Sequence record: NC_004928.1
Length of the DNA stretch: 64,000 nucleotides
Source: Escherichia phage RB69
Direction: 5' to 3' (one strand)
A program made the position numbers and the translations under genes. The notes beneath the pieces were generated by a model, which saw nothing but the letters and a program-made list of their open reading frames with translations, did not search any database and was not told the origin of the DNA. Shown in pieces: positions 44,928 through 62,386 of this stretch (position 1 is the first letter of the stretch; each line of letters starts with the position of its first letter).

Positions 44928-47183
44928 TTAAAGCTTACAAGCAGAGCAATCTTCAGCTTTAGGTGTTTCTAATTCATAGTCATCTGTACCTGACCCATCA
45001 CGAGTGTTATGATAGTAGAGATTTTTTCCGCCAAAGTACCAGAAGTAAAGCAGATCGTCAAGCATTACCGACATTGGCACTTTACCTTTCTCAAATACAG
45101 CAGGGTCATAATAAGTATTAGCAGAAGCAGATTGGCACACCCATTTCAACATGATAGCAACTTGGGTCAAATAAGGTTTATTACCTTTCTTAGCAAGTTT
45201 CCACGCGTAGTCGTAAAGACTCATGTTATGTTCGATATTAGGAACAACCTGTCGGAAGTTGCCTTCTTTAGATTCTTTAATACTTACAGGTCCACGAGGT
45301 GGTTCTATACCATTTGTGCTATTTGAGACTTGACTGCTTGATTCACATGGCATGAGAGCACTAAGTGTACTGTTACGAATTCCATGTTCTTTTGAGTTCA
45401 GCTCGAAGTTCTTCCAGTCACAGACGTAGTTCGGGGCTGCGATTTGGTCAATCTTTTTATTGTACCAGTCGATAGGTAATTCGCCTCTAGACCATTTAGT
45501 GTCTGAATAATACTCACAAGGTCCTTTTTCTTTGGCGAGTTTGATTGAAGCTTTGATAAGGCCATATTGCAATCTCTCGAACAATTCATGAGTCAAATAG
45601 TTAGCGTCTTCATATGAAGCAAAGTTAGAAGCTAACCATGCAGCATAGTTCGTCACACCGACACCGAGATTTCGACGCTTTTTAGCTTTTAAAGCTTCTG
45701 GAACCGGATAATCTTGATAGTCTAACAGGTTATCAAGTGCACGTACTTGTACTTCAGCAAGTTCATTAATTTTATCTTGGTCTTGCCAATCAAATTTATC
45801 TAATACAAAAGCAGATAACGTGCATAAACCAATTTCAGCATCAGGACCATTCACATCATTAGTTGGAATAGCGATTTCACAACATAAGTTACTCTGACGA
45901 ATTGGAGCTTTTTCACGAATAAACGGAGTGTAGTTATTCGTGTTATCAACAAACTGTGGATAAATTCGAGCAGTACCAGAACGTTCAGTCATGAACAATT
46001 CAAAGAGTTCTAGTGCTTTGATTCTTTTCTTTCTGATTGTTGGGTCTTTTTCAGCTTTCTCATAAAGCTCACGGAATTTATCTTGATCTTCAAAGAATGA
46101 GTAATATAGTTCGCCTGACATTTCGTGAGGGCTAAATAAAGTAATATAATCATTTTTACCAAGGCGTTCCATCATGAGGTCATTAATCTGAATTCCGTAG
46201 TCCATATGTCGAATACGGTTTTCATCCACGCCTTTGTTATTTTTCAGAACTAATAGGTTCTCTACTTCTAAGTGCCACATTGGATAATACGCTGTAGCAG
46301 CACCACCACGAATACCACCTTGAGAACAAGATTTTACTGCAGTTTGGAAATGTTTCCAGAATGGAATAACACCCGTATGTCGAACTTCACCCATACCGAT
46401 CTTAGAACCTTCTGCACGAAGCATACCAACGTTGATACCGATACCAGCTCGTTTAGAAATATATTCAATAATTGATGCTGAAGTTTTGTTAATAGATTTT
46501 AACGAATCACCGGCTTCAATAACTACACAACTAGAGAACTGGCGAGTTGGAGTACGAGCACCTGCCATAATTGGGGTTGGCAATGAAACTTGATGAGTAG
46601 AAACGGCATCATAAAAACGAATAATATGTTTCAAACGGTCATGAGTTTCGTCTTGGTGTAAGGCCATGCCAATAGCCATGATAGCAAACTGGGGAGTTTC
46701 ATAAATCTTACCAGTTGTTTTATCTTTAACCAGGTATTTTTCTTTAAGCTGCATAGCACCAGCATAAGTCAGATCAAAATCTCGCTCATGTTTAATCCGA
46801 GAATCAAGATAAATGATTTCTTCTGCAGAATATCTAGACAACAACTCAGGATCATATTTGCCTTCATTAACACAATAAGAAATATGGTCGATAAAAGCAG
46901 GCGGTTCAAACTGCCCATATACATCTTTACGAAGTGCAAACATTAGCCCTTTGGCGGCGACATACTGATAATCAGGTTCTTCGACAGAAATCGAGTTAGC
47001 TGCAACTTTAATACAAATCTTCTGGATATCTTTGGTGCTCATCCCGTCGACAAGATGGGTCTTAATTTCTTCGTACAATTCATATGGGTCGATTTGTGTT
47101 CCTTCACATTGCCAAGTTAAGACTTGAATAATTTTCTGTGCATCAAAATTTTGGGATACACCACTGCTCTTAGTTACTTGCAT
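44928..47183 (-). CDS. nrdA: Ribonucleotide reductase large subunit NrdA
   Basis: 751 aa; active-site region SNLCCEIA, C-terminal redox cysteines (CSACKL); alignable with recalled E. coli NrdA. Confidence 0.95.
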   Translation of the reverse strand: MQVTKSSGVSQNFDAQKIIQVLTWQCEGTQIDPYELYEEIKTHLVDGMSTKDIQKICIKVAANSISVEEPDYQYVAAKGLMFALRKDVYGQFEPPAFIDHISYCVNEGKYDPELLSRYSAEEIIYLDSRIKHERDFDLTYAGAMQLKEKYLVKDKTTGKIYETPQFAIMAIGMALHQDETHDRLKHIIRFYDAVSTHQVSLPTPIMAGARTPTRQFSSCVVIEAGDSLKSINKTSASIIEYISKRAGIGINVGMLRAEGSKIGMGEVRHTGVIPFWKHFQTAVKSCSQGGIRGGAATAYYPMWHLEVENLLVLKNNKGVDENRIRHMDYGIQINDLMMERLGKNDYITLFSPHEMSGELYYSFFEDQDKFRELYEKAEKDPTIRKKRIKALELFELFMTERSGTARIYPQFVDNTNNYTPFIREKAPIRQSNLCCEIAIPTNDVNGPDAEIGLCTLSAFVLDKFDWQDQDKINELAEVQVRALDNLLDYQDYPVPEALKAKKRRNLGVGVTNYAAWLASNFASYEDANYLTHELFERLQYGLIKASIKLAKEKGPCEYYSDTKWSRGELPIDWYNKKIDQIAAPNYVCDWKNFELNSKEHGIRNSTLSALMPCESSSQVSNSTNGIEPPRGPVSIKESKEGNFRQVVPNIEHNMSLYDYAWKLAKKGNKPYLTQVAIMLKWVCQSASANTYYDPAVFEKGKVPMSVMLDDLLYFWYFGGKNLYYHNTRDGSGTDDYELETPKAEDCSACKL

Positions 47184-47218
47184 ATATTCCTCAGTATAGG
47201 TTGATAGACATTACTCCA

Positions 47219-47270
47219 AACGGGATAGTATTTATCCCGTTAATTTATTATACACTTTTAAACTGAAGCG
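47219..47270 (-). promoter_or_regulatory. nrdA leader: possible MotA-type middle promoter (CGCTTCA box, 12 nt, GTATAAT) followed by a 9-bp-stem hairpin (AACGGGATA/TATCCCGTT)
   Basis: Read on reverse complement; the MotA box is a 6 of 7 match. Confidence 0.4.
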
Positions 47271-47525
47271 TTAATTATTCTTAGCAATAATTTCTTTGTA
47301 TTCTTTAGGTGTCAAGACTGTGATATCGAAATAAACCAATGGTTCTTTTTCCATACCGTAACCACCACAAAATTCACGATATTCATAAATTCGTTCATGT
47401 GAATAACAAATGAATCGTTCACCTTTAACTGTGATTTCACTATTCGGTGAAGGGATATCTAGTTCGGTAGGATTTTTCATTTCAAAAATTGTGGTGCCAT
47501 ATGAATTAATAAAACGTAAAATCAT
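47271..47525 (-). CDS. Hypothetical protein (84 aa) between td and nrdA
   Basis: ORF. Confidence 0.55.
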   Translation of the reverse strand: MILRFINSYGTTIFEMKNPTELDIPSPNSEITVKGERFICYSHERIYEYREFCGGYGMEKEPLVYFDITVLTPKEYKEIIAKNN

Positions 47526-48386
47526 TTATACCGCCATTTTAGCTTTGATAGTTGGATGAGATTCGTAATTTTTAAGAACGAAATCAGAATGTGTCATCGT
47601 TCCAGTAACCCAGTCCATTTGGATTTTTGTAGGCCAATTCTCAAAATTACTAGGCCAATTAATTTCAAGAGAACACAACTCTTTAGGTTCACGACGAAGA
47701 ACTTCTTTGCATTGTTCTACATGATTGCTGTAGATATGCGTGTTGCCGCCTGAGAACACTAAATCACCCGGGATAAGGTTACACATCTTCGCTACAATAT
47801 GCGTCAAGGCAGCGTACGAGGCGATGTTGAACGGCAGGCCCAAGAAAACATCTACACTGCGTTGATACCATTGTAAATCAAGATGTCCATTACGCACATT
47901 AAATTGATAGAACATATGACAAGGAGGAAGAGCCATTTGGTCAATTTCGGCAGGGTTCCATGCAGAAACTATTTGTCGACGATCATTAGGAAGAGCTTTA
48001 ATACGGTCGATAGTTTTGACCAATTGGTCTACACCACCAAAATCACGCCATTGCTTACCATAAATAGGACCAAGTTCGCCGCTATGATATCCAAGGTCTT
48101 TTGCCTGATTTTCATAGTTGTCGTCCCAAATAGTTTTACCTTCAATTAGACTACCATGAGTACGAATACGCAAATCATTAACATTGGTAGAACCAGACAT
48201 GAACCACAGTAGTTCGGCAATACAAGCTTTCCATGCAAGCTTCTTGGTTGTTACTGCAGGGAATCCTTTAGTCAGGTCCCATCGCAATTTAGTTCCGAAC
48301 AGGGCAATAGTGCCTGTGCCTGTACGGTCGTCTGTTTCGTAGCCATTTTCTAGGATATCATTAATCAGGTATTGGTATTGTTTCAT
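47526..48386 (-). CDS. td: Thymidylate synthase (uninterrupted, no intron)
   Basis: 286 aa continuous ORF, same length as spliced T4 TS; active-site region PPCH present. Confidence 0.95.
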   Translation of the reverse strand: MKQYQYLINDILENGYETDDRTGTGTIALFGTKLRWDLTKGFPAVTTKKLAWKACIAELLWFMSGSTNVNDLRIRTHGSLIEGKTIWDDNYENQAKDLGYHSGELGPIYGKQWRDFGGVDQLVKTIDRIKALPNDRRQIVSAWNPAEIDQMALPPCHMFYQFNVRNGHLDLQWYQRSVDVFLGLPFNIASYAALTHIVAKMCNLIPGDLVFSGGNTHIYSNHVEQCKEVLRREPKELCSLEINWPSNFENWPTKIQMDWVTGTMTHSDFVLKNYESHPTIKAKMAV

Positions 48387-48970
48387 TTATACACGCTCTC
48401 AGTAATTTCGGTGAGTTCATCGATTCTGTAGTAATGAGATTCTACCATAGAACGTTGAAGCATAATATCTTGGACGAAATCTTTATCAAGTTGAACATCG
48501 GAATTAACACGACATTTCTTAATGATTTTAGTCATCACGATTTCATCGGCATAAGGCAGTGCTTGTTTTAATAATGCAGGACCACCAATAACCGAGACAT
48601 CAACATGTTCAGTAGAAAGTTTAAACGGTACGTCGGTTGAAGGGCTAAACAGGTTAATTTCACCACCCATTACCAAGGTAATAAATTCTGCTTGGGTGAT
48701 ATAGAACCGTGCAAGTTCATCAGTTTTAGTCCTAGGCAGTTTTCTGGCCATATCAGTGACAACCATATGAGTACGATCTGGTAGTAGACGAGGTAATGAT
48801 GCAAAAGTCTTAGCACCCATAACCATTACAGTGTTTTTAGTGCGAGCAACAAAGTTACTCATATCTTGTTTGATATGCTTCCATGGAAGTCCATCACCTA
48901 ATCCAAAAGCATATTCCAGTTTATCATCAACTGTTTTAGACGGTGCGCATGCGAATACTAATTTAAGCAT
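48383..48970 (-). CDS. frd: Dihydrofolate reductase
   Basis: 195 aa; alignable with recalled T4 DHFR; 4-nt overlap with td. Confidence 0.9.
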   Translation of the reverse strand: MLKLVFACAPSKTVDDKLEYAFGLGDGLPWKHIKQDMSNFVARTKNTVMVMGAKTFASLPRLLPDRTHMVVTDMARKLPRTKTDELARFYITQAEFITLVMGGEINLFSPSTDVPFKLSTEHVDVSVIGGPALLKQALPYADEIVMTKIIKKCRVNSDVQLDKDFVQDIMLQRSMVESHYYRIDELTEITESVYK

Positions 48971-48973
48971 TTT

Positions 48974-49222
48974 TTATTTCCTCAGATTTTTCTTAATAAC
49001 TTTCCAATCAGCTTTGAACATTTCAACGTCGGAGTGGTGAATCCAGAATCCTGCGCTTTCACCGTCTTCGTAGAGTGGACATCCATCACATTCTTCGTTC
49101 CAACCCATTTCACGTAAAGCTTCTTCAGCTTGTTCAAGGAGTTCAGCGTCTTTACCGACGATGTTGAAGTACCATTTACCTCTAACTTCTGAATCTTTGA
49201 TGCTCTGGCGTTGCAATCTCAT
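48974..49222 (-). CDS. Hypothetical protein (82 aa; frd.1-like)
   Basis: ORF. Confidence 0.5.
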   Translation of the reverse strand: MRLQRQSIKDSEVRGKWYFNIVGKDAELLEQAEEALREMGWNEECDGCPLYEDGESAGFWIHHSDVEMFKADWKVIKKNLRK

Positions 49223-49247
49223 TTTATTCTCCTCTTCACTTTTATTT

Positions 49248-49286
49248 GATAGGGCTACTATAAAATAGCCCTATCTTGTTATAAAC
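49248..49286 (-). promoter_or_regulatory. Putative early promoter (GTTTAT, 17-18 nt, TATAGT) with the -10 inside a perfect 10-bp inverted repeat (GATAGGGCTA/TAGCCCTATC); PeSL-like
   Basis: Read on reverse complement. Confidence 0.45.
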
Positions 49287-49678
49287 TACTTTTTAAAAGT
49301 TTTTTGCAAAAGTTTGATGATTTCGTCGACGTTGGTTTCATCTACGATACAATGGATTTTTGTTACACCTAAAGTTATACCTTCGTTAGTAGGTTGAGGC
49401 TTTACTAAATCTACCTCAGTAAAGTATTTGAACTCATCATAATAAATCTCAAAATAAGTTTCAATTTCACCACCGGCAGAACATACAGTACCATCTTCCA
49501 TAGTTACACTTACTACGTTTGACGTATCGCTATCATAATCAGGTTCCATTCCGTTTACAACAAAACTAGGCCCGTGGAGTTCAATCAATTTTAACATCTT
49601 AGCGTTACTGTGTGGTGCTTCTTGAACAAAGTCGTCTTTAAATAAAGGGTTAATGATATAAGATTTTCCAATTTCCAT
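49286..49678 (-). CDS. Hypothetical protein (130 aa; frd.2-like)
   Basis: ORF 49286..49777; SD GAGGAAA before the ATG at 49678 (MEIGKSY...), avoiding overlap with the upstream gene. Confidence 0.5.
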   Translation of the reverse strand: MEIGKSYIINPLFKDDFVQEAPHSNAKMLKLIELHGPSFVVNGMEPDYDSDTSNVVSVTMEDGTVCSAGGEIETYFEIYYDEFKYFTEVDLVKPQPTNEGITLGVTKIHCIVDETNVDEIIKLLQKTFKK

Positions 49679-49688
49679 TTTGATTTCC

Positions 49689-49940
49689 TCATTTGTTGAT
49701 GTGTTGTAATAAAGATTCTGCAAACGTCTCATATGATTCCAGGTGTTCTTCTTTAATGCGAACTGCATGATTATCACCCGAAGAATAGAACATCTGTACG
49801 ATAAGAGCTTCGTAATCAGACGAAATACATGCTACGTTTTCCGGCTTCAGGCATTCATTGTATGTCGCAACTGGGTCAGTGAAAGCTGCAACGTTTTTGC
49901 TACCGCAGTAATCCATACTTCTTTGAATAATAAAAATCAT
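49689..49940 (-). CDS. Hypothetical protein (83 aa; frd.3-like)
   Basis: ORF. Confidence 0.5.
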   Translation of the reverse strand: MIFIIQRSMDYCGSKNVAAFTDPVATYNECLKPENVACISSDYEALIVQMFYSSGDNHAVRIKEEHLESYETFAESLLQHINK

Positions 49941-49970
49941 TTTATTTTCCTCTCATTTGTTGATAAGTCT

Positions 49971-49999
49971 ATAGTATCATGTTTAAAGGAAAAGTAAAC
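49971..49999 (-). promoter_or_regulatory. Early promoter (GTTTAC, 17 nt, TACTAT) upstream of the frd.3-like gene
   Basis: Read on reverse complement. Confidence 0.5.
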
Positions 50000-50025
50000 A
50001 ACTTTTTTTGGCAATTTACAGATAC

Positions 50026-50049
50026 TCAAAAGGGAGACCGAAGTCTCCC
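50026..50049 (-). terminator. Rho-independent terminator downstream of gene 32 (GGGAGAC-UUCG-GUCUCCC plus U-run)
   Basis: Third identical copy of the 18-nt hairpin. Confidence 0.75.
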
Positions 50050-50056
50050 TAATTTA

Positions 50057-50956
50057 TTATAGACCAGCTAACAGGTCATCGAGGTCGCCATCGTCAGAAG
50101 ACGAGGAACTCATGAAGTCATCTTCAGTTTTTGCAGAACTAAAGGCTTCCATGTCTTTATCAAAATCGTCGAGGTCAGAAGCAACTTTATCTGCAACAGA
50201 AGCTGCTGCGGCTGCTGCACCACCCAGAGCGGCAGTACCAAGAACTTGATTAAATTTAGTATTCAATTCTTCAAACGATTTGAACTTATCTTTAGAAGTC
50301 ATTTCAGAAAGGTCAACCATTTGTTCGAACAATTCTTTCTGGAAAGATTCATCATCAATGTTTGGAATCGCAGATTGATTCAGGAATTTAGATTCGTCAT
50401 AGTTACTGAAACCAGAAACCTGTTTAACTTTCAGCACAAAGTTAGCACCTTCCCATGGACAAGTTACATCAACAGGAGTTTCACCCATTTCAGTATCAAC
50501 TGCAATCATTGCATTGATTTTGTCCCAAATCTTTTTACCAAAACGGTATTTGAATACCTTACCTTCATTATCTGGAGCTTGTGGGTCTTTAACAACCAGA
50601 ATATTAGCCCAATAAGAAGTTTTACGTTTCAGTTGAGAATATTCAGTTTTGTTGGTATTGTACAGGTCATTTTTACTAATGTACTGACATACAGGACAAG
50701 AGTCATAATCGCCGTGTGTAGATGAACAGGTTTCAATATACCATTTGCCATTTTTCTTGAACCCGTGGTTAACAAGAATTGCAAACGGAAGTGCGTCATC
50801 TGTTTTTGCCGGCAGGAAACGAATTACCGCTTGACCATTACCGGATGCATCGAGTTTCAGCTTCCATTCACCTTTATCTTCTGAAGAGAAACCTTTGTTA
50901 CCATTCAGTTTAGCCATCTGAGCTGCGAGGTCTGCGGTACTTTTACGTTTAAACAT
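50057..50956 (-). CDS. 32: Single-stranded DNA-binding protein gp32
   Basis: 299 aa; N-terminal [23 protein letters not shown] and acidic C-terminus match recalled T4 gp32. Confidence 0.95.
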
Positions 50957-51043
50957 TATATTTACCTTTATTTAGATTATTTAATTTATTTACAGTTGGT
51001 TGCTACGACACTTATACCTCGTAGCTGGTATGATTTATTTATA
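50957..51043 (-). promoter_or_regulatory. Gene 32 leader: late promoter TATAAATA (51036-51043), stem-loop, and A/U-rich unstructured region before the SD (autoregulatory operator-like)
   Basis: Minus-strand tttTATAAATAaatc, inverted repeat GCTACGAGG...GTCGTAGC, then a long AU-rich tract. Confidence 0.55.
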
Positions 51044-51072
51044 AAGTAATTTTAACACAGATAAAATAAAGC

Positions 51073-51726
51073 TTAATACTTACATGATTTTATTGTTTCT
51101 ATGAACAATTTCTTAGCAGCATTTACATCGATTTGAAGTATTTTTCGATATGCCTTTAATTTGGTAGAATAATTTTGCCAGACTAAATTGTCAGTAAGTT
51201 CGTCATGCTTATCTATAATATTCAAGAATGAATCCAACAACAAGAAGGTTTCAAACGAAATTATATTGCTTTGTAGCAATTTAAATATGTAGCTCGACTG
51301 AACTTTATTATTATAATCAAATATCTCTTGAAGCGCACTAACTTCCACTTTCTTACTGAAATAGTAGATGTTACGTACATCTTCAGCAAACGTCTCCTTG
51401 GCTTGTTTGAGACGTCCAATATATTCCCTATAGAAAACTAATGCATCAGCGTCTGATATCTCACCAATCCATGCATCTTGGTTAGCAACTAAGTTACTGA
51501 TGAATATCAAAGTGAGTTCCTTTAACTTATATTTCTCTGCTAGTTTCTCAAAGAAATATTTATCTCGGCGTTTTTGATATGCATTATCCGAAACACGCAT
51601 GCACCAGTTATATTTGATTACGTCATACCGACCATTAAAATGTTGTTTGCACATCAAGTATAGTTTGTATACCGATTTTCCATTAATATAACGTTCTCCG
51701 TCGGGAGGCATGCGTATTTTAATCAT
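51073..51726 (-). CDS. 59: Helicase loader gp59
   Basis: 217 aa, same length and position as T4 gp59. Confidence 0.9.
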   Translation of the reverse strand: MIKIRMPPDGERYINGKSVYKLYLMCKQHFNGRYDVIKYNWCMRVSDNAYQKRRDKYFFEKLAEKYKLKELTLIFISNLVANQDAWIGEISDADALVFYREYIGRLKQAKETFAEDVRNIYYFSKKVEVSALQEIFDYNNKVQSSYIFKLLQSNIISFETFLLLDSFLNIIDKHDELTDNLVWQNYSTKLKAYRKILQIDVNAAKKLFIETIKSCKY

Positions 51727-52061
51727 AATAAGAAATCTAACGTATTAGTTTTTTCACCACGAGCAACTGATGGGCGAAGCATGTTTTCGTCAATTGCTTC
51801 GCTTGTAATTTTTTCAACAATTCCTGTAGGAATAAATTTAGCAAATTGTGTTTCTGGAATAGAATTTTCTTCCAAGAAAGCAGTTGTTGCTTCTAAATAA
51901 GACATACCAAATTGTTCAACCATGGATTCGATAATGAATCCGTTTTCTTGACGGTCAAGCAATTTAGCGATATCATCTTTATCATGTTTTACTGCTAATT
52001 CTTGTTCAGATAAACCGGTCTCATCAACCGGTTTAATATCACTTAGTGAAAACTGTGTCAT
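51723..52061 (-). CDS. 33: Late transcription co-activator gp33
   Basis: 112 aa, same length as T4 gp33; synteny. Confidence 0.9.
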   Translation of the reverse strand: MTQFSLSDIKPVDETGLSEQELAVKHDKDDIAKLLDRQENGFIIESMVEQFGMSYLEATTAFLEENSIPETQFAKFIPTGIVEKITSEAIDENMLRPSVARGEKTNTLDFLL

Positions 52062-52308
52062 AAAGCTCGACTACCTCTTCGTTTTCAGCTTCAAATTGGT
52101 CACGAGCATCTTTATGATAAAGAGCTAACAAACGATTAAACATTTTTCCATCAACGCCAAGCTCTTCTTTAGCACGAGTACGAATGTCTTTAATCAGTTC
52201 ATTATAACCAGAAATTTTAAGTTTGTTATCGGAAGCTTCCTTGACTAGTTTAGCCAGTTCTTCACCATGCACATCTTGATTAAATTCAACTGCTTCTTTC
52301 TTAGCCAT
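52039..52308 (-). CDS. dsbA: dsDNA-binding protein DsbA
   Basis: ORF 52039..52326; SD GAGGTAA precedes the internal ATG (MAKKEAVEF...), giving 89 aa as in T4. Confidence 0.85.
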   Translation of the reverse strand: MAKKEAVEFNQDVHGEELAKLVKEASDNKLKISGYNELIKDIRTRAKEELGVDGKMFNRLLALYHKDARDQFEAENEEVVELYDTVFTK

Positions 52309-52359
52309 GTTTACCTCAGAATTCATTAATTACACTTGTTAATTTAGAAAGACCGGATT

Positions 52360-53232
52360 TTACAAGTATGAATAAATCTTGCCTTTAGGTTGTGGTTGAT
52401 ATGAGTTATAATACTCTATAATGGTTGAAGCAATATTATCAGGGATATAATCAAAATCAATGAGAACCAAATTTTCTTGGTACCGTTTATATTCTTCTGC
52501 ACTTAATAATACTTCAGCTTGAGAACGATCATTGGCAAGTGCTTCAATGATCGTTGTTTTCATGCTTGGAGTTCGTTCGCCTTCGACTCGAGTAAACCAG
52601 AAATCACCACGAACTCGAACAGACGCAACACCATCTTTACGGTCGCCTTTAAGAATTTTAGTCATGCAATCAATTTCGGCAGAACCATTCTTAATTTTAA
52701 CCCATTTTTTCTGCGGTGGCGACCACTGTTTAACGTTAGGGTATTTGTGTAATTGTGTAAAGTCACCATCTGATGCAACAATACACACCTTATGACCAGC
52801 TAATGACAAATATTTAGTTAATACGCCGATATGGTCATCCGCTTCGTATTTGTCAATATCCATTACAACGTATGGCATATATTTCTTAATCTCATCAACG
52901 ACTTGATGAAGTGCAGTAAAATATCCTTCCCAATCCCACTTTGAAGCTTCACGATCAGTTTTACGATTTTTCTTGTAGTAGTAAGCAAAGTCGCGTCGCC
53001 AATACCCAGAAGTAGCGTTATCCATGCACAATACAAATTTTGTATAACCTTGCTTACGGAACATCACTACGTTTTTACGAATTGAATTCAAGACTACATG
53101 ACGAACCATCGGAACGGTAATTTTATCACCATCTTCAAAGTTGTTTAATGCAGCTGCCAATGCAATGTTACTAAAGTCTGCAAGCGCAATACCTTCTTTG
53201 TAATCTTCATCCAACATCATTTCTAAATCCAT
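52360..53232 (-). CDS. rnh: RNase H (5'-3' exonuclease), C-terminus apparently truncated by a 3' frameshift
   Basis: 290 aa; N-terminus MDLEMMLDEDYKEGI matches recalled T4 RNase H; ends KIYSYL-stop while a shifted frame continues VKSGLSKLTSVINEF-stop. Confidence 0.9.
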   Translation of the reverse strand: MDLEMMLDEDYKEGIALADFSNIALAAALNNFEDGDKITVPMVRHVVLNSIRKNVVMFRKQGYTKFVLCMDNATSGYWRRDFAYYYKKNRKTDREASKWDWEGYFTALHQVVDEIKKYMPYVVMDIDKYEADDHIGVLTKYLSLAGHKVCIVASDGDFTQLHKYPNVKQWSPPQKKWVKIKNGSAEIDCMTKILKGDRKDGVASVRVRGDFWFTRVEGERTPSMKTTIIEALANDRSQAEVLLSAEEYKRYQENLVLIDFDYIPDNIASTIIEYYNSYQPQPKGKIYSYL

Positions 53233-53310
53233 ATGAACCTCTTGTTCAGTTAGTCAACTTAGACCATAGTAACATACTAGTTCGAAAGCGTAAATAGTCT
53301 TTTACTCATT

Positions 53311-53318
53311 TATAAATA
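53311..53318 (+). promoter_or_regulatory. Late promoter TATAAATA upstream of gene 34
   Basis: Exact motif about 35 nt upstream of the gene 34 ATG. Confidence 0.6.
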
Positions 53319-53352
53319 GTAAAATAGAACACATAATGATAAGAGGACTACC

Positions 53353-56300
53353 ATGGTTGACATCAAACGTAAGTTCAGGGCCGAAGATGGTCTTGACGCA
53401 GGCGGTGATAAGATAGTTAACGTTGCGCTTGCTGACCGCACAGTTGGCACCGATGGCGTGAACGTTGACTTTTTGGTGCAAGAAAACACCGTACAGAATT
53501 ATGACGAGACGCGCGCGTATACAAAAGATTTTATTGTTCTTTATGATAATCGTTTTTATCAAGCTTTAAGCGATATTCCAGCTCCGGCAGGCCCTTTCTC
53601 TTTGGCTAAATGGAAGGCAACTCGTACAGATGCAGAATGGATTACAGTTCAAGGCGGAGATTTCCAATTATCAGTAGGTAACTCTATTGCGGTTGATACT
53701 TCAGCTGGCATTGATATTAATTTCACTTTGCCTCAAAATCCTTTAGATGGCGATACAGTTATTTTGTCTGATATTGGCGGTAGAGTAGGCTATGTAAAAG
53801 TTCAAATTACTGCAGAGGCTCAAAGTATTGTAAACTTTAGAGGACAACAGGTTCGTTCAGTTTTAATGACGCACCCAAAATCTAAAATAGTATTCATTTT
53901 TAGCAACCGCCTATGGCAAATGTATGTTTCTGATTATGAACGTAATGCAGTCACAGTAACTCCTGCTAAGCCATATCAGGCGCAACCTAACGATTTTATC
54001 ATTCGACGTTTTACATCAGCCGCTCCTATTAATATTACATTGCCTCGCAATGCTAATAATGGCGATATTATTAATTTAGTTGATTTAGACAAATTAAACC
54101 CGTTATATCACACAATTGTCAAAACTTACGATGATACAACTTCTATACGAGAAGCCGGTGTTCATGTAGCAGAAGGACGTAATACTGCAGAAGCGTTCTT
54201 TGTTTATGATTCTGCTAATAGCTTATGGCGTGTTTGGGAAGGTGACCAGAAATCTCGTTTACGTATAGTTCGTAATGATACTGATTTACGCCCTAATGAA
54301 GAAGTTCTTGTTTTTGGAACTAATAATGATACAATCTCGACGGTAAATCTTACTTTGCCTACAGATATTTTGTCTGGTGATACTGTTAAAATATCGTTGA
54401 ATTATATGCGTAAAGGGCAAACTGTAAAAATTAAAGCTGCTGAAGGCGATACAATTGCTAGCAGTATTTCTTTATTACAGTTCCCAAAACGTTCAGAGTA
54501 TCCACCTGATGCACAATGGGTTTCTGTTAGTGAGCTGGAATTTAATGGCGATACTTCGTATGTCCCTGTACTTGAGTTGGCTTATATAGAAGATTATTCA
54601 TCTGAAACAAAATATTGGGTAGTTCAACAAAACACTGTAACCGTCGAACGAGTCGATGCATCGAGCAATACAACTCGAGCTCGTTTAGGTGTTATTGCTC
54701 TTGCTTCTCAAGCACAAGCAAATGTTGATTTAGAAAATGCTCCTGGTAAAGAACTGGCTATTACTCCGGAAACATTAGCAAATCGTACAGCAACTGAAAC
54801 TCGTCGCGGTATTGCTCGTATTGCAACAACTGCACAAGTTAACCAGAATACCGATTTTGCATTCCAGGACGATTTGATTATTTCTCCTAAGAAATTGAAC
54901 GAACGTACAGCAACTGAAACCCGTAGAGGTGTTGCTGAAGTTGCAACTCAGGCTGAAACTAATGCTGGAACAGATGATACCACTATTATTACTCCTAAGA
55001 AATTGGATGCCCGTCAAGGTTCTGAAGTTTTATCTGGTATTGTAAAATACACATCTACGACTGGTACTACAGCTGCTACTGTTCGTGGTAATGCTGGGAC
55101 TAACGTTTATAACAAAGCCGTAGATAATTTAACTATTTCTCCAAAGGCTCTTGACCAGTATAAAGCTACCCATACTCAACAGGGCGCAGTAATTCTTGCT
55201 ATTGAAAGTGAAGTTATCGCTGGCGAATCACAAGCCGGTTGGGCTAATGCTGTAGTGACCCCTGAAACTCTGCATAAGAAAACTTCTACTGATGGACGTA
55301 TTGGTTTAATTGAAATTGCTACGCAAGCAGAAACTAACACTGGAACTGATTATACTAGAGCAGTAACGCCTAAGACGTTAAATGATAGGAAAGCTACGGA
55401 AGGATTATCCGGCATAGCCGAAATTGCTACGCAAGTTGAATTTGATACTGGAACTGACGATACTCGTATCTCGTCTCCACTGAAAATTAAAACTCATTTT
55501 GATTCTTCTGACCGTACCAGTGTTAATTCTGATTCCGGACTTATTGAAGAAGGAACCTTGTGGAACCATTATACTCTTGATATTTCTAAAGCAAATGAAA
55601 CACAACGCGGTACACTTCGCGTAGCGACCCAGGCAGAATCTAATGCAGGAACTTTAGATGATGTTCTTATTACTCCTAAAAAGCTTTTAGGGACTAAGTC
55701 CACTGAAACGTCTGAAGGCGTGATTAAGGTTGCTACTCAGGCTGAAACTGTAACAGGAACTTCTGCTAATACTGCTGTATCACCTAAGAATTTAAAATGG
55801 ATTGTTCAATCAGAACCATCATGGACTGCTACTACGGCAATTCGTGGATTCGTTAAAACTTCATCTGGTTCTATTACATTTGTCGGTGACGATACTCAAG
55901 GTAATACCCAGGATTTGAATCTTTATGAGAAAAATAGTTATGCTATTTCTCCATATGAATTAAACCGTGTACTTGCTAACTACTTACCGTTGAAAGCTAA
56001 AGCAGCTGATAGTAATTTGTTAGATGGTCTAGATTCTCTTCAGTTCATCCGTAGAGACATCGACCAGACGGTTAATGGTTCTTTAAGTCTTACTAAACAG
56101 ACCAACCTGAGTGCTCCTTTAGTATCTACAAGCACCGCTTCTTTTGGTTCCGAAGCATCTGTTACTCGTAGATTAACTCTTAATGACTCTAGCGGTTCCG
56201 AAATAGTTTTCACTAAAGGAACCCAATCTCTTAGTAATAAAGAGAATTTCGTTGTTAGAGCATGGGGTAATAGCGCTACAGCTGGTGACCGTGATACAGT

Positions 56301-57186
56301 ATTTGAAGCGGGTGACGAAACCGGATACCATTTCTATTCTCAGCGCGCTGCTGATAATAAAGTATCATTTAATATTAATGGAACACTTTATTCAACAGGT
56401 ATTGTTTCTACAAATGGATTAAATGTTACAGGTGTTTCTACCTTTACCGGGCCTATTAGTGCTACAGGCGAAATTGTTTCTAGTTCTCCTATTGCATTCA
56501 GAGCTATTAACGGTAACTATGGTGTTATGCTTTATAACGCTGGTAACAGTTCTTATATTGCATTAACTAACTCAGGTGACCAGACCGGGACGTTTAATAA
56601 CTTACGCCCGATCACGATTAACAATGCCACAGGATTAGTTCGTCTTGACAACGGTGTTCAAATCACAAGTGGTGCAACAATAACTACCGGTGGGTTAACT
56701 GTAAATAACAGGATTATTTCTAACGGCGTTAAAACTGCCACGGTTTATACCGATAAACCAACAGCTTCTACTGTAGGTTTTTGGTCTATTGACATTAACG
56801 ATTCTGCTGTATATAGCCAATTCCCTGGATACTGGACGCGTGATAACAAAGGTAACCGTGACCAAGAAATTAAATATCCTGGTACTTTGACTCAATTCGG
56901 CAATAGCTTAGATTCGCTTTATCAGGATTGGATTTGTTATCCTACAGGTGCAAATGGTGGTAGTATTCGATATACTCGTACCTGGCAGAAAAATAAAGAC
57001 GCTTGGACCTCATTTGCAATGGTATTTGATAGTGGCAACCCACCTTCACCTAGCGATGTCGGTGCTATCCCATCCGATAATGCTGTGATTGGAAACCTTA
57101 CTGTTCGAGACTTCTTACAATTAGGAAATGTGAGAATTGTTCCAGACCCGGTTAACAAAACCGTTAAATTTATATGGGTTGAATAA
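53353..57186 (+). CDS. 34: Long tail fibre proximal subunit gp34
   Basis: 1277 aa; internal fibre repeats; position as T4 gene 34. Confidence 0.9.
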   Translation: MVDIKRKFRAEDGLDAGGDKIVNVALADRTVGTDGVNVDFLVQENTVQNYDETRAYTKDFIVLYDNRFYQALSDIPAPAGPFSLAKWKATRTDAEWITVQGGDFQLSVGNSIAVDTSAGIDINFTLPQNPLDGDTVILSDIGGRVGYVKVQITAEAQSIVNFRGQQVRSVLMTHPKSKIVFIFSNRLWQMYVSDYERNAVTVTPAKPYQAQPNDFIIRRFTSAAPINITLPRNANNGDIINLVDLDKLNPLYHTIVKTYDDTTSIREAGVHVAEGRNTAEAFFVYDSANSLWRVWEGDQKSRLRIVRNDTDLRPNEEVLVFGTNNDTISTVNLTLPTDILSGDTVKISLNYMRKGQTVKIKAAEGDTIASSISLLQFPKRSEYPPDAQWVSVSELEFNGDTSYVPVLELAYIEDYSSETKYWVVQQNTVTVERVDASSNTTRARLGVIALASQAQANVDLENAPGKELAITPETLANRTATETRRGIARIATTAQVNQNTDFAFQDDLIISPKKLNERTATETRRGVAEVATQAETNAGTDDTTIITPKKLDARQGSEVLSGIVKYTSTTGTTAATVRGNAGTNVYNKAVDNLTISPKALDQYKATHTQQGAVILAIESEVIAGESQAGWANAVVTPETLHKKTSTDGRIGLIEIATQAETNTGTDYTRAVTPKTLNDRKATEGLSGIAEIATQVEFDTGTDDTRISSPLKIKTHFDSSDRTSVNSDSGLIEEGTLWNHYTLDISKANETQRGTLRVATQAESNAGTLDDVLITPKKLLGTKSTETSEGVIKVATQAETVTGTSANTAVSPKNLKWIVQSEPSWTATTAIRGFVKTSSGSITFVGDDTQGNTQDLNLYEKNSYAISPYELNRVLANYLPLKAKAADSNLLDGLDSLQFIRRDIDQTVNGSLSLTKQTNLSAPLVSTSTASFGSEASVTRRLTLNDSSGSEIVFTKGTQSLSNKENFVVRAWGNSATAGDRDTVFEAGDETGYHFYSQRAADNKVSFNINGTLYSTGIVSTNGLNVTGVSTFTGPISATGEIVSSSPIAFRAINGNYGVMLYNAGNSSYIALTNSGDQTGTFNNLRPITINNATGLVRLDNGVQITSGATITTGGLTVNNRIISNGVKTATVYTDKPTASTVGFWSIDINDSAVYSQFPGYWTRDNKGNRDQEIKYPGTLTQFGNSLDSLYQDWICYPTGANGGSIRYTRTWQKNKDAWTSFAMVFDSGNPPSPSDVGAIPSDNAVIGNLTVRDFLQLGNVRIVPDPVNKTVKFIWVE

Positions 57187-57194
57187 GAGGTTAT

Positions 57195-58319
57195 ATGGAA
57201 AAATTTATGGCAAGGTTTGGACAGGGATACGTCCAAACGCCGTTTTTATCGGAAAGCAATTCAGTTAGATTTAAGCTAAGTATAGCGGGTTCATGCCCGC
57301 TTTCAACAACTAATCCGTATATTTTGTTCCAAAACGAGCCTTTAGGGTTGCAGTCTTTTGGTATTGGACTAAATGTTAGGGTGATAAATCCGGAAAATGG
57401 AACTATAGTTGATAGTAAATTATACAATTTTGCGCCTACAAATAATGCAACTTCAGCTGCATTTATTTCGTTTGTTAATACATACGCAGATAATTTCATT
57501 TTCGCATTTATTTCTAATAACAAATTTAATTTGCCGCCAGAAATAATTGAATGGTTTAAAGCTGCTGGGAGTTCAGTTATACCGTCAATTGAAGTTGCTA
57601 GTCTTGTTGATATTTCATATTCAGCGTTTTATGTTTCAGGTAAAAATACTATTGCATTAGAACACATAAAATACAGTAATAAGAAAACAATTTCTGATTA
57701 CGCAACTCCATTAGATATTGTATATGACTCTATTGCTGATATAGGTGCTACCGGCTATCCTAGACGTACATATGAAGCTCTAGAAACGTTTTTATCTCCT
57801 GTTGGAGGAACTAACAATGAAATAAAAAGGGTGCCTACATCATCCCTTGTTACTCCTATCGCAAACTATGGATTAAAGCCTACAGATTTTCTTTATTTGA
57901 AATTTCAATTAATGGCTGATGAAGAATTATTAGAGGAAGGAACCACAAGACTTTCAATTCGTTTCTTTAAGTCTCCATCTAGCTCTCCTATATCATCTAA
58001 AGATATAAACTTTGATGGAACTGCCGGGGAGTGGAAGCTATATGAAGAATACGTTGAAATACCAGCTGAAGCTGATGGCTTTACAGTATATTGTTACCGT
58101 ACGGCCTCAGTCGGTCAAGGTGGACTAAGAAATGTTATTTTCACTGAAGTATCATGTAACGGAAGTATAGCAAAACCCGCCGAGTTTGGTATAAACGGTA
58201 TTCGTGTTAATTACATTGATGAATCATTAACCGGTAATGATATAATGGACTTGCCTACTCAGTTATCTAACGACACAGGTAAGGTATTTGGGCAGGAATT
58301 TAAAGAGTACACAGAATAA
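57195..58319 (+). CDS. 35: Long tail fibre hinge protein gp35
   Basis: 374 aa; synteny. Confidence 0.85.
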   Translation: MEKFMARFGQGYVQTPFLSESNSVRFKLSIAGSCPLSTTNPYILFQNEPLGLQSFGIGLNVRVINPENGTIVDSKLYNFAPTNNATSAAFISFVNTYADNFIFAFISNNKFNLPPEIIEWFKAAGSSVIPSIEVASLVDISYSAFYVSGKNTIALEHIKYSNKKTISDYATPLDIVYDSIADIGATGYPRRTYEALETFLSPVGGTNNEIKRVPTSSLVTPIANYGLKPTDFLYLKFQLMADEELLEEGTTRLSIRFFKSPSSSPISSKDINFDGTAGEWKLYEEYVEIPAEADGFTVYCYRTASVGQGGLRNVIFTEVSCNGSIAKPAEFGINGIRVNYIDESLTGNDIMDLPTQLSNDTGKVFGQEFKEYTE

Positions 58320-58341
58320 AGGAGACTTCGGTCTCCTTTTC
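58320..58341 (+). terminator. Rho-independent terminator after gene 35 (GGAGAC-UUCG-GUCUCC plus U-run)
   Basis: Read directly. Confidence 0.7.
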
Positions 58342-58344
58342 GCG

Positions 58345-58352
58345 TATAAATA
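58345..58352 (+). promoter_or_regulatory. Late promoter TATAAATA upstream of gene 36
   Basis: Exact motif about 27 nt upstream of the gene 36 ATG. Confidence 0.6.
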
Positions 58353-58378
58353 CTTTAATATTAATAAGGAGACACGAA

Positions 58379-59035
58379 ATGGCCGATTTAAAAGCCGGAA
58401 GTACAGTTGGTGGTTCCGTCATATGGCATCAAGGCAATTTTCCTTTAATGCCAGCTGGCGACGACATCCTATATAAAACATTTAAATTATACACTGAATA
58501 TAACAAGCCAAAAGCGGCTGATAACGATTTCGTATCTAAAGCAAATGGTGGGACATATCTCAAAAAGGTAATCTTTAACGAAGGTGTTGCAGTCAAAACA
58601 GCAGATGACCAAACGAATGGTATTTTTTCTGGTGGTGGTGACGCCGCGACATTCGACCAAACAAACATGGATATTGTTTCGTGGTATGGTATTGGGTTTA
58701 AATCATCTCAAGGTACAGGTGAAAGAACTGTTGTAATTGATACTCGCACCGGTAATATAAGTTCTAAAGGCGTTATTGAAGCATCTCAATTCAGAGCCAC
58801 AACGTTAGCACCTTTAAATAATTACGACCTTACTCGCAAAGATTATGTTGATAGTCAAATAAATACAGTTAATGCTAATGCAAACAGTCGTGTACTCCGT
58901 TCAGGAGATACGATGACCGGCGCGCTAACCGCCCCAAACTTTTTCTCACAGAATCCTGCATCTCAACCCTCGCATGTTCCACGATTTGATCAAATTGTTA
59001 TTAAGGATTCTGTTCAAGATTTCGGCTATTATTAA
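58379..59035 (+). CDS. 36: Long tail fibre distal connector gp36
   Basis: 218 aa; synteny. Confidence 0.85.
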   Translation: MADLKAGSTVGGSVIWHQGNFPLMPAGDDILYKTFKLYTEYNKPKAADNDFVSKANGGTYLKKVIFNEGVAVKTADDQTNGIFSGGGDAATFDQTNMDIVSWYGIGFKSSQGTGERTVVIDTRTGNISSKGVIEASQFRATTLAPLNNYDLTRKDYVDSQINTVNANANSRVLRSGDTMTGALTAPNFFSQNPASQPSHVPRFDQIVIKDSVQDFGYY

Positions 59036-59043
59036 GAGGACTT

Positions 59044-62000
59044 ATGGCTACTTTAAAACAAATACAATTTAAAAGAAGCAAAACTGCAGGAGCACGTCCT
59101 GCCGCTTCAGTATTAGCCGAAGGTGAATTGGCTATAAACTTAAAAGACCGTGTACTTTTTACTAAAGATGACCAAGGAAATATTATTGATCTGGGTTTTG
59201 CTAAAGGTGGTAGTATTGACGGGAATGTTATTCATACTGGCAATTATAACCAAACTGGCGATTATACTTTAAATGGCACCTTCACTCAGACAGGTAATTT
59301 TAATTTAACCGGTATTGCTCGAGTAACTCGTGATATTATTGCCGCTGGGCAGATTATGACTGAAGGCGGTGAACTTATTACAAAAAGTTCAGGTACAGCA
59401 CATGTTCGTTTTCATGATTCGGCTGATCGTGAACGTGGCATTATTTATGCACCGGCTAATGATGGATTAACTACGCAAGTAGTTAATATCCGCGTTAAAG
59501 ACTACGCCGCTGGTGATGAAAGCACCTATGCATTTTCGGGCAGTGGACTATTTACTTCACCTGAAGTGTCAGCATGGAAATCTATGTCAACTCCTCAGAT
59601 TTTGACAAATAGAGTTATTACTAATAATAAATCTACGAGCGATTATGACATTTATTCTATGGCAGACAACGTTCCATTGTCTGAAAGCACTACTGCTATT
59701 AATCATCTCCGTGTTATGCGCAATGCTGTAGGCGCTGGTGTATTCCATGAAGTTAAAGATAATGATGGAATAACTTGGTATACTGGAGATGGCTTAGACA
59801 CTTATCTTTGGTCGTTTACCTGGTCCGGTGGATTGAAAGCAGGCCATTCTATTTCTGTTGGTACTCCTGGTGGCAATAAAGGATACTCTGAATTAGGGAC
59901 TGCTTCAATTTCTCTTGGCGATAATGATACAGGCTTAAAATGGCATCAAGATGGATATTATTTCAGCGTTAATAATGGAATAAAAACGTTTTTATTTAGT
60001 CCCAACGAAACAACTAGCCTAAGAAAATTTGTAGCTGGATATTCTACCACCGGAACCGATTTAACTACTCCTCCAACTGAAAACTATGCTTTGGCCACTG
60101 TTGTTACTTACCATGATAATAACGCGTTTGGAGACGGTCAGACTCTTTTAGGATATTATCAAGGCGGTAACTATCATCATTATTTTCGCGGTAAGGGTAC
60201 TACAAACATTAATACTCACGGCGGTTTGTTAGTTACTCCAGGTAATATTGATGTTATTGGCGGTTCTGTTAATATCGATGGTAGAAATAATTCTTCTACA
60301 CTGATGTTTAGAGGTAACACGACCGGAGCTAGTTCAGTTGATAATATGACAATTTCCGTTTGGGGCAATACGTTTACTAATCCTAATGTAGGTAATCGTA
60401 AAAACGTCATGGAAATTTCTGATGCAACTAGCTGGATGAGCTATATTCAAAGACTTACTACTGGTGAAGTAGAAATGAACGTTAATGGTTCATTTGAATC
60501 ATCTGGTGTTACTGCTGGAGATAGGGGAGTTCACACAACAGGCGAAATTTCATCTGGGGCTGTGAATGCGCTTCGTATTTGGAATAATGATTATGGAGCC
60601 ATTTTTAGACGTTCAGAAGGCAGTCTTCATATTATTCCAACTGCTTATGGTGAAGGTAAACATGGTGATATCGGTCCACTTCGCCCGTTTAGTATGGCTT
60701 TAGATACCGGTAAAGTTACTATTCCAGATTTACAATCAAGTTACAATACGTTCGCTGCGAACGGCTATATTAAATTTGTTGGTCATGGCGCTGGCGCTGG
60801 TGGTTATGATATTCAATATGTTCAAGCGGCTCCTATTTTCCAGGAAATCGATGATGATGCTGTAAGTAAATATTATCCTATTGTTAAGCAGAAGTTTTTA
60901 AACGGTAAAGCAGTTTGGTCTTTAGGTACTGAAATTAATTCGGGTACATTTGTTTTACACCATATCAAAGAAGATGGATCACAAGGCCATACATCTCGTT
61001 TTAATCAAGACGGCACAGTTAATTTCCCTGATAATGTTCAGGTTGGTGGTGGTGAAGCTACTATTGCTCGCAACGGTAACATCTGGTCTGATATCTGGAA
61101 AACGTTTACTTCTGCCGGTGATGTAACTAATATCCATGACGCTATTGCTACTCGTGTTGCCAAAGAAGGTGATACGATGACAGGCCGCTTAACTCTTAAT
61201 GCAAACTCGGATGTTATTGTTATTAACAGTGCTGCAACCGAATCTGGCTATTTGAAAGGACAAAAAGCCGGCGTTGATAACTGGTATGTAGGTAATGGTG
61301 GGGCTGATAATGCCATATCGTTTTATAGTTTCCGAAATAATTCAGGCATAAATGTTAATAATGGTGGCGATATTGCTTTAAACCCAGAAGGGTCCGCCAC
61401 TTTTAATTTTAATAAGGACCGACTTTATATAAATGGTTCGGTTTGGACCTCACACCAGGCCGGCGATTGGGGAAATCAATGGCGCCAGGAAGCTCCTGTA
61501 TTTGTGGATTTTGGCTACGTCGGTAATGATAGTTATTATCCAATTATCAAAGGAAAATCTGGTATTACTAACGAAGGATATTTTTCAGGCGTTGATTTTG
61601 GTATGCGACGCATTCCTAATAACTGGGCACAAGGTATTATTCGTGTTGGTAACCAGGAAAATGCTAGCGATCCGCAAGCTATCTTCGAATTCCACCATAA
61701 TGGAAACATGTACGTTCCTGACATGGTTAAAGCTGGAGTAAGATTATCAGCTGGTGGAGGTGACCCTGCATGGACAGGCGCATGTGTTGTTATTGGTGAT
61801 AATGACACTGGGTTAGTTCATGGCGGTGACGGTCGTATTAACATGGTTGCAAATGGAGTGCATATTGCTTCGTGGTCAGCTGCTTATCAGATCCATGAAG
61901 GTCTTTGGGATTCAACTGGTGCTTTATGGACTGAAACAGGAAGAGCTATTATTTCTTATGGGCATTTAGTCCAACAAAGTGATGCCTATTCCACATATGT

Positions 62001-62355: not shown

Positions 62356-62360
62356 TAAGA

Positions 62361-62374
62361 GGGGCTTCGGCCCC
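62361..62374 (+). promoter_or_regulatory. UUCG hairpin (GGGGC-UUCG-GCCCC) between genes 37 and 38
   Basis: Read directly; followed by the GGAGG Shine-Dalgarno. Confidence 0.5.
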
Positions 62375-62386
62375 TTGGAGGTGTAT

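What the first reader, a model, noticed from the sequence alone, without database searches (positions are those of the whole stretch)
52313..52375. rnh (RNase H): single-base deletion near the 3' end replaces the last ~15 residues with a premature stop
The ORF ends ...GKIYSYL-stop. The shifted frame continues VKSGLSKLTSVINEF-stop, matching the recalled T4 RNase H C-terminus (...GKIYSYFVKAGLSKLTNSINEF), with its stop overlapping the dsbA SD. A TTT to TT change in TACTT(T)GTAAAA explains it.
Basis: partly seen in the sequence, partly recalled or inferred. Interest (0 to 1): 0.5.

Follow-up and report, generated by a model that had tools for sequence, protein, structure and literature searches.

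The report
Sequencing error truncates RB69 RNase H
The apparent frameshift that shortens the RNase H gene is real in this text, which is the 2003 reference genome of phage RB69, but it is almost certainly a base dropped during sequencing, because fresh assemblies of RB69 and all relatives have the intact 305-residue gene.

Summary
On the minus strand rnh (52360-53232) reads ...GKIYSYL-TAA. The -1 frame continues VKSGLSKLTSVINEF-TGA, which matches the C-terminus of T4 RNase H. All relatives have TACTTTGTA where the window has TACTTGTA.

The window is the RB69 reference genome: the 290-aa product is exactly AAP76149.1/NP_861940.1. The repaired 305-aa protein exists by exact sequence in de novo assemblies of eight public read sets. 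Those contigs are otherwise RB69; one matches 17.6 kb of the window with 0 mismatches and 2 single-base indels. All of them carry TTT.

Over the ~60 kb of the window that such contigs cover, the window differs at 19 indel clusters. Many are compensating +1/-1 pairs inside genes (22, alt, cd, nrdA, nrdB). In 72 informative comparisons with ten other Mosigvirus sequences, the relatives sided with the re-sequenced allele 72 times and with the window 0 times.

The rnh "frameshift" is therefore one of many small errors in an old record. True RB69 rnh is an ordinary 305-aa T4-type RNase H. A private mutation of the originally sequenced stock stays formally possible (~5-8%). Interest is low, apart from the warning about the reference record.

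The parts
52360..53232 (-). rnh ORF as written in the window. It is 290 aa and ends ...GKIYSYL-TAA. It equals the RB69 GenBank/RefSeq protein AAP76149.1/NP_861940.1.
   Evidence: ORF list. Exact-sequence look-up. Pfam 5_3_exonuc_N plus RNaseH_C, the latter truncated at profile position 109 of 124.
52364..52365 (-). Site of the missing base. The run is TT on the coding strand (AA on the + strand), whereas re-sequenced RB69 and all relatives have TTT.
   Evidence: Alignment with four relatives. Base-by-base differences against eight RB69 contigs. Allele check against relatives.
52316..52363 (-). True 3' end of rnh, displaced into the -1 frame. It holds 15 codons (VKSGLSKLTSVINEF) plus TGA at 52318-52316.
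   Evidence: Translation. Full-length alignment of the repaired protein to T4 RNase H 1tfr, residues 1-305, E = 4e-159. Pfam RNaseH_C complete at 124/124 after repair.
52039..52317 (-). dsbA. The 89-codon ORF runs from ATG 52308-52306 to the stop at 52041-52039. Its GAGG ribosome-binding site at 52317-52314 overlaps the true rnh stop codon.
   Evidence: Direct reading. Gene calls and annotation in relatives and in re-sequenced contigs.

Best explanation
The window is the 2003 reference sequence of Escherichia phage RB69. The missing T at 52364-52365 is a base-calling, assembly or editing error in that record, not a property of the phage.

Real RB69 encodes an ordinary 305-residue T4-type RNase H. 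This is a FEN-1-like 5' nuclease that removes Okazaki primers. Its N-terminal peptide binds the gp45 clamp and its C-terminal domain binds gp32. Its TGA stop overlaps the ribosome-binding site of the downstream dsbA gene.

The error probably survived finishing because it lies 15 codons from the end, so a plausible 290-codon ORF remains. Most other indel errors inside genes of this window occur as compensating +1/-1 pairs that also leave the ORFs open.

Shown here:
- the identity of the window;
- the TTT allele in independent assemblies;
- the genome-wide pattern in which the window is always the outlier.

Inferred: that the cause is technical rather than a private mutation of the stock that was sequenced.
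For: 1. The 290-aa product is, by exact sequence, AAP76149.1/NP_861940.1 of RB69. It is seen on a single 167,560-bp contig and in no read-set assembly.

2. The repaired 305-aa protein is in the collection by exact sequence, on 9 de novo Logan contigs. Eight were fetched, from SRR16629523/24/26/27, SRR16634598 and SRR29299745/46/47.

3. Those contigs are RB69. L009 matches window 45621-63232 with 0 mismatches and only 2 one-base indels. L010, L012 and L013 behave the same way. All eight have TCATACTTTGTAAAATC.

4. The second indel shared by those contigs (window 50050) is an extra base in the window, placed in the hairpin just 3' of gene 32. It is absent from all relatives.

5. Across the ~60 kb covered (1641-13554 and 15069-63232) the window has 19 indel clusters against re-sequenced RB69. 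These include compensating pairs or in-frame nets in gene 22 (10820/10826), alt (29813/29982), the 30.3 homologue (34270/34273 and 34526/34530), cd (37723-37755), nrdB (43993/44113 and 44746-44749) and nrdA (45390/45414). Substitutions are often clustered beside them.

6. Ten independent Mosigvirus sequences favour the re-sequenced allele in 72 of 72 informative comparisons, with 8 ties, and never the window allele (shown for eight sites).

7. Exact-protein look-ups of the window's alt and gp22 products found nothing on record. This fits with those reference proteins carrying frame-shifted stretches that no real assembly encodes.

8. All 14 listed cluster relatives other than one 128-aa fragment are 305 aa.
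Against: I examined assemblies, not raw-read pileups.

The run accessions fall into only two or three deposit series, which may all descend from one laboratory's RB69 stock. They do not sample the stock sequenced in 2003.

A homopolymer of three is not a classic Sanger trouble spot.

rnh is dispensable in T4 (PMC3012046), so a stock could tolerate such a mutation.

I found no published erratum or note about the RB69 record.
Confidence: 0.9

Rival explanations
1. A genuine private mutation. The RB69 stock sequenced in 2003 had really lost one T, and made an RNase H that ends at residue 290 with F290L and lacks the last 15 residues. This would weaken the gp32-dependent processivity of primer removal. 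The phage would tolerate it because host Pol I 5'-3' exonuclease can substitute.
For: [quoted passage not shown] 2005). The truncated product keeps the whole nuclease domain and 109 of 124 positions of RNaseH_C. The re-sequenced stocks may not descend from the stock that was sequenced.
Against: The same record is the lone outlier at 18 other indel clusters. Many of these are compensated frameshift pairs in genes such as 22, nrdA and nrdB, which are very unlikely as real mutations. In the best-matching stretch there are no substitutions at all in 17.6 kb, only indels. That is the signature of reading errors, not of divergence between stocks. The truncated protein appears in no read-set assembly.
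Confidence: 0.07
2. Programmed recoding. The gene is meant to be read with a -1 ribosomal frameshift (or transcriptional slippage) at TAC-TTG-TAA, giving both a 290-aa and a ~305-aa product.
For: The full conserved C-terminus lies intact in the -1 frame immediately at the stop codon.
Against: There is no X XXY YYZ slippery heptamer; the sequence is TCA TAC TTG TAA. A TT run is far too short for transcriptional slippage. Every relative and re-sequenced RB69 encodes the protein in a single frame. The intact downstream frame is what a recent or artefactual single-base loss would leave.
Confidence: 0.005
3. The re-sequenced contigs are not RB69 but a near-identical relative or a T4 x RB69 recombinant that brought in an intact rnh. 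The reference would then be right for RB69 proper.
For: One run (L008, SRR29299745) carries a T4-type td intron with I-TevI and a co-conversion tract at window 47856-48216. Some of the material is therefore from crosses. A paper describes such T4 x RB69 and T2 x RB69 chimeras (PMC11825919).
Against: Around rnh the contigs match the window with 0 mismatches over up to 17.6 kb. T4 rnh is only about three-quarters identical in protein, so a T4-derived patch would be obvious. The repaired protein is identical to the RB69 protein at all of residues 1-289.
Confidence: 0.02

Closest known systems
Bacteriophage T4 RNase H (rnh product; PDB 1tfr, 2ihn), a FEN-1/5'-3' exonuclease family nuclease
   Same: The repaired RB69 protein aligns with T4 RNase H over residues 1-305 of both, without gaps, at E = 4e-159. 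It has the same two Pfam domains and an N-terminal MDLEMMLDEDYKEGI identical to T4. It also has the same gene neighbourhood: gene 34 divergent upstream, then dsbA, 33, 59 and 32 downstream.
   Different: As written in the window, the ORF stops 15 codons early with F290L. This difference vanishes in re-sequenced RB69.
rnh of other Mosigvirus phages (Shf125875, PHB12, PhAPEC2, JS09, PTE-Eco05, FL31, LF82-9)
   Same: These are 95-98% identical in DNA over the 1051-nt query that spans rnh, and share the same 3' end and the same overlap with the dsbA ribosome-binding site.
   Different: All have TTT (or TTTT) at the site and encode 305 aa.
Small indel errors in early Sanger-era phage reference genomes
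   Same: There are isolated one-base indels, compensating +1/-1 pairs a few to ~170 nt apart inside genes, and substitutions clustered beside indels. The reference is the only outlier against both re-sequencing and relatives.
   Different: None. This is the class to which I assign the finding. That the 2003 record was made by Sanger sequencing rests on my own knowledge, not on a tool result.

Membership tests
T4-type RNase H (FEN-1-like 5' nuclease) | N-terminal 5'-3' exonuclease (resolvase-like) domain, PF02739 | tested here: met
   Residues 52-175, 50.2 bits against a cutoff of 34.3, in both the truncated and the repaired protein.
T4-type RNase H (FEN-1-like 5' nuclease) | Complete T4 RNase H C-terminal domain, PF09293 (the gp32-binding domain) | tested here: met
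   The window ORF covers profile positions 1-109 of 124 (175.0 bits). With the T restored, as in re-sequenced RB69, it covers 1-124 of 124 (198.6 bits).
T4-type RNase H (FEN-1-like 5' nuclease) | Full-length collinearity with the solved T4 enzyme, including the N-terminal clamp-binding peptide | tested here: met
   Residues 1-305 align with 1-305 of 1tfr at E = 4e-159. The first 15 residues are identical.
T4-type RNase H (FEN-1-like 5' nuclease) | Conserved position between gene 34 and dsbA-33-59-32 | tested here: met
   Annotations of relatives and gene calls on RB69 contigs.
T4-type RNase H (FEN-1-like 5' nuclease) | 5'-nuclease / RNase H activity stimulated by gp32 and gp45 | not testable with these tools
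   This is a biochemical property. It is known for T4 only (PMC3012046).
Genuine frameshift mutation or pseudogenisation of rnh in RB69 | The deleted allele is present in phage DNA when sequenced independently | tested here: not met
   Eight de novo assemblies of RB69 read sets all carry TTT. The 290-aa product occurs only in the reference record. The TT allele had 0 matches in IMG/VR. The 51 matches in genome and metagenome collections are chance matches, none of them rnh.
Programmed -1 ribosomal frameshift | Slippery heptamer X XXY YYZ at the shift site | tested here: not met
   The sequence at the site is TCA TAC TTG TAA.
Programmed -1 ribosomal frameshift | Conservation of the two-frame arrangement in relatives | tested here: not met
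   All relatives and re-sequenced RB69 use a single frame.
Sequence-record error | The record is the only outlier against both re-sequencing of the same phage and independent relatives, at this and many other small-indel sites | tested here: met
   There are 19 indel clusters. Relatives favour the re-sequenced allele 72 times, the window allele 0 times, with 8 ties.
Sequence-record error | Raw reads or traces of the original project show the missing base or an ambiguous call | not testable with these tools
   The original traces are not available here.

The most novel reading that the evidence does not exclude
The RB69 stock sequenced in 2003 really carried the one-base deletion. It would then be a natural C-terminal truncation mutant of RNase H that lacks the last 15 residues of the gp32-binding domain. 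Such a mutant could be used to ask how much primer removal in vivo depends on the RNase H-gp32 contact.
Probability: 0.06. Interest if true: 0.2.

Novelty: not a real feature. Interest (0 to 1): 0.07.

Why it matters
There is little biological consequence: RB69 has a normal rnh gene.

The practical value is a warning about a much-used reference. RB69 is a model for DNA polymerase, clamp and gp32 work. In this 64-kb window alone, the record (AY303349/NC_004928) differs from re-sequenced RB69 at about 19 small indel clusters.

These give a truncated RNase H (290 instead of 305 aa). They also give short stretches of wrong amino acids in gp22, Alt, the 30.3 homologue, dCMP deaminase, NrdA and NrdB. 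gp51 and NrdB additionally differ in length by one residue.

Protein sequences taken from this record for alignments, structure prediction, cloning or mass-spectrometry databases would inherit these errors. Scans for frameshifts or pseudogenes in it will raise false alarms.

Tried and rejected
- **IMG/VR scan for the TT allele.** It gave 0 matches. The matching wild-type pattern gave only 2, so this collection has little power here.

- **Degenerate 20-mer scans of genome and metagenome collections.** They gave 12 and 39 matches. blastn and tblastn against rnh found none of them homologous. They are chance matches of an AT-rich pattern and add little as a negative result.

- **Exact-protein look-ups of the window's alt and gp22 products.** They returned nothing. 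I first suspected wrong start codons. The later comparison showed that both reference proteins contain compensated frameshift stretches, which explains the failure.

- **Literature searches for a published correction or comment on the RB69 record or its rnh.** They found nothing relevant.

- **Link between the SRA runs and particular papers.** I could not verify it. PMC11825919 (chimeric T4 x RB69 phages, PRJNA1120483) is a plausible source for the SRR292997xx series, but this is only inference.

- **Programmed frameshifting.** I considered and rejected it on sequence grounds (no slippery site) and on comparative grounds.

- **Structure prediction of the truncated protein.** I did not run it, because the outcome would not bear on whether the deletion is real.

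Full report
**1. What is in the sequence**

rnh lies on the minus strand. The longest ORF is 52360..53232 (290 aa) and ends ...QPQPKGKIYSYL followed by TAA. Read one base back, the sequence continues GTA AAA TCC GGT ... GAA TTC TGA. This encodes VKSGLSKLTSVINEF and stops at 52318-52316. That TGA overlaps the GAGG ribosome-binding site of dsbA, whose ATG is at 52308-52306.

**2. Comparison with relatives**

A megablast of the 1051-nt region against the phage collection found 228 records, with a best identity of 97.7%. The closest ones examined are Mosigvirus (RB69-like) phages. In the listed rows that cover the whole query, 1051 query bases align to 1052 record bases.

An alignment with Shf125875, PHB12, PhAPEC2 and JS09 places the single gap in the run TACTTTGTA, where the window has TACTTGTA. 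All four annotate rnh as 918 nt, or 305 aa.

The repaired protein aligns with T4 RNase H (PDB 1tfr) over residues 1-305 of both at E = 4e-159.

Pfam RNaseH_C is matched at positions 1-109 of 124 by the window ORF, and at 1-124 of 124 after repair, a gain of 23.6 bits.

The displaced frame is thus beyond doubt the true 3' end of the gene.

**3. What the window is**

An exact-sequence look-up of the 290-aa product returned AAP76149.1/NP_861940.1, 'RNaseH ribonuclease [Escherichia phage RB69]'. It is seen on one contig of 167,560 bp and from no read-set assembly. The window is therefore the RB69 reference record. That record seems to be absent from the 'phages' collection, which explains why the best hit there was only 97.7%.

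**4. The decisive test**

I built the protein that RB69 would encode with TTT restored and looked it up by exact sequence. It is present, on nine Logan contigs; Logan contigs are de novo assemblies of public read sets. Eight of these places were fetched, from SRR16629523, 24, 26 and 27, SRR16634598, and SRR29299745, 46 and 47.

They are RB69. L009 matches window 45621-63232 with no mismatch and two one-base indels. L010, L012 and L013 also show only those two indels, and L014 only the one.

- One indel is the T at 52364, which is present in all eight contigs.
- The other is an extra base in the window at 50050. It sits in the hairpin just 3' of gene 32 and is absent from all relatives as well.

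De novo contigs from eight read sets are that result, short of an actual pileup.

**5. Is the rnh site special?**

It is not. I fetched further RB69 contigs through gp23, gp29 and RNA ligase 1. I then compared about 60 kb of the window (1641-13554 and 15069-63232) with them. The window differs at 19 indel clusters, about 24 single indel events. It also differs at a few dozen substitutions, several of which lie right beside indels.

Many of the indels are compensating pairs or in-frame nets inside genes:

| Gene | Window positions | Change in the window |
|---|---|---|
| gene 22 | 10820 / 10826 | +1 / -1 |
| 89-codon ORF between genes 23 and 24 | 13321 / 13472 | -1 / +1 |
| alt | 29813 / 29982 | +1 / -1 |
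| 30.3 homologue | 34270 / 34273 and 34526 / 34530 | two pairs |
| cd | 37723-37755 | net +3 |
| nrdB | 43993 / 44113 and 44746-44749 | pair, and net -3 |
| nrdA | 45390 / 45414 | +1 / -1 |

For each cluster I asked which allele ten independent Mosigvirus sequences favour. The result was 72 comparisons for the re-sequenced allele, 0 for the window allele and 8 ties. Eight of the sites are shown base by base.

A record that is the lone outlier everywhere, mostly by indels and often in compensated pairs, is showing reading or editing errors, not divergence. This also explains why exact look-ups of the window's Alt and gp22 proteins found nothing on record.

**6. Explanation**

The most likely account (about 0.9) is that the T was dropped when the 2003 record was made. 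That the record was made by Sanger sequencing is my own knowledge, not a tool result. Errors that broke well-known ORFs early would have been noticed during finishing. This one leaves a 290-codon ORF with good homology, so it passed, as did the compensated pairs.

Real RB69 rnh is an ordinary member of the T4 RNase H family.

**7. What a real truncation would mean**

[quoted passage not shown] Mutations in that domain abolish the gp32 stimulation of processivity. rnh-minus phage are viable because host Pol I can substitute (PMC3012046, citing Gangisetty et al. 2005 and Hobbs and Nossal).

A private mutation in the sequenced stock is therefore biologically tolerable and cannot be excluded without that stock. 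The pattern in section 5 makes it unlikely (about 0.07).

Programmed frameshifting is excluded for practical purposes. There is no slippery heptamer (TCA TAC TTG TAA), a TT run is too short for transcriptional slippage, and all relatives use a single frame.

The idea that the contigs carry a T4-derived rnh is excluded by their mismatch-free identity to the window around the gene.

**8. Limits**

- I saw assemblies, not read pileups.
- The runs fall into two or three deposit series that may share one laboratory stock.
- I could not tie the run accessions to papers. PMC11825919 describes Illumina-sequenced T4 x RB69 chimeras, which would fit the T4 td intron seen in L008.
- Scans for the TT allele in IMG/VR, genome and metagenome collections gave nothing homologous, but these have little power.

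**9. Verdict**

The molecular interpretation is correct, but the feature is an artefact of the reference record. Interest is low. The only useful by-product is the list of errors in the RB69 reference within this window.

Noticed in passing
window 10820 and 10826 (gene 22, ORF 10811-11623 +): A compensating pair: an extra A and a missing C six bases apart. It changes the start of the scaffold protein from MIKEQLLK (re-sequenced RB69 and three relatives) to MIKRTILK in the window. This is probably a record error, and it explains why the exact gp22 look-up failed.
   Followed up: yes
window 13321 and 13464-13551 (89-codon minus-strand ORF between genes 23 and 24): There is a missing T at 13321 and an extra G at 13472, inside a dense cluster of substitutions at 13464-13482, with four more up to 13551. 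Two relatives favour the re-sequenced allele. Six RB69 contigs (L017, L018, L020, L021, L023 and the metagenome contig aside) stop at window 13554, which suggests an assembly-graph branch there. The cause was not examined.
   Followed up: partly
window 22819-22821 (gene 51 homologue, ORF 22670-23425 +): The window has one extra TGA unit in GATTGATGATGA, giving 251 aa against 250 aa in re-sequenced RB69. The one informative relative favours the shorter form. This could be an error or a true repeat-number difference.
   Followed up: partly
window 29813-29982 (alt, ORF 29309-31396 -): A +1/-1 pair 169 nt apart, with two substitutions between them (29875, 29971). It would put about 56 codons of the ADP-ribosyltransferase Alt out of frame in the record. 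No relative in hand covers the site. The exact look-up of the window's Alt protein found nothing.
   Followed up: partly
window 34270-34273 and 34526-34530 (30.3 homologue, about 34264-34677 -): Two tight compensating indel pairs against re-sequenced RB69. At 34526-34530 four relatives favour the re-sequenced allele; at 34270-34273 the four comparisons are ties.
   Followed up: partly
window 36603, 38496 and 50050: Three uncompensated single-base indels at or outside gene ends. They lie at the 3' boundary of the Linr3-family gene, between two small ORFs, and in the hairpin GGGAGAC-TTCG-GTCTCCC just 3' of gene 32. Relatives favour the re-sequenced allele at all three.
   Followed up: partly
window 37723-37755 (cd, dCMP deaminase, about 37668-38249 -): The window has three extra single bases within 33 nt (net +3). 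This gives a short frame-shifted stretch and one extra residue. Four relatives favour the re-sequenced allele.
   Followed up: partly
window 39709-39949 (pseT, ORF 39229-40128 -): Six substitutions and no indel between the window and contig L033 (SRR16634598). I did not check whether these are record errors, real stock differences or a recombinant patch.
   Followed up: no
window 43991-44113 and 44746-44749 (nrdB, ORF 43700-44872 -); 45390 and 45414 (nrdA, ORF 44928-47183 -): There are compensated frameshift pairs in both ribonucleotide reductase subunits, plus a 3-base deficit in nrdB (390 aa in the window against 391 in re-sequenced RB69). At the four single-base sites all seven informative relatives favour the re-sequenced allele; at 44746-44749 three favour it and four are ties.
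   Followed up: yes
L008 15398-16723 (SRR29299745), corresponding to window 47856-48216: This RB69-background contig has td split by an intron that encodes a GIY-YIG/I-TevI endonuclease. It also has 82 substitutions against the window, all between 47856 and 48216. This looks like homing of the T4 td intron with co-conversion of flanking exon sequence in a T4 x RB69 cross. Such chimeras are described in PMC11825919.
   Followed up: partly
L015 3700-9184 (phage PTE-Eco05), corresponding to window nrdB/nrdA: In this relative, nrdA, nrdB and td are each annotated in two pieces separated by a homing endonuclease gene. RB69 has uninterrupted genes at these places.
   Followed up: no
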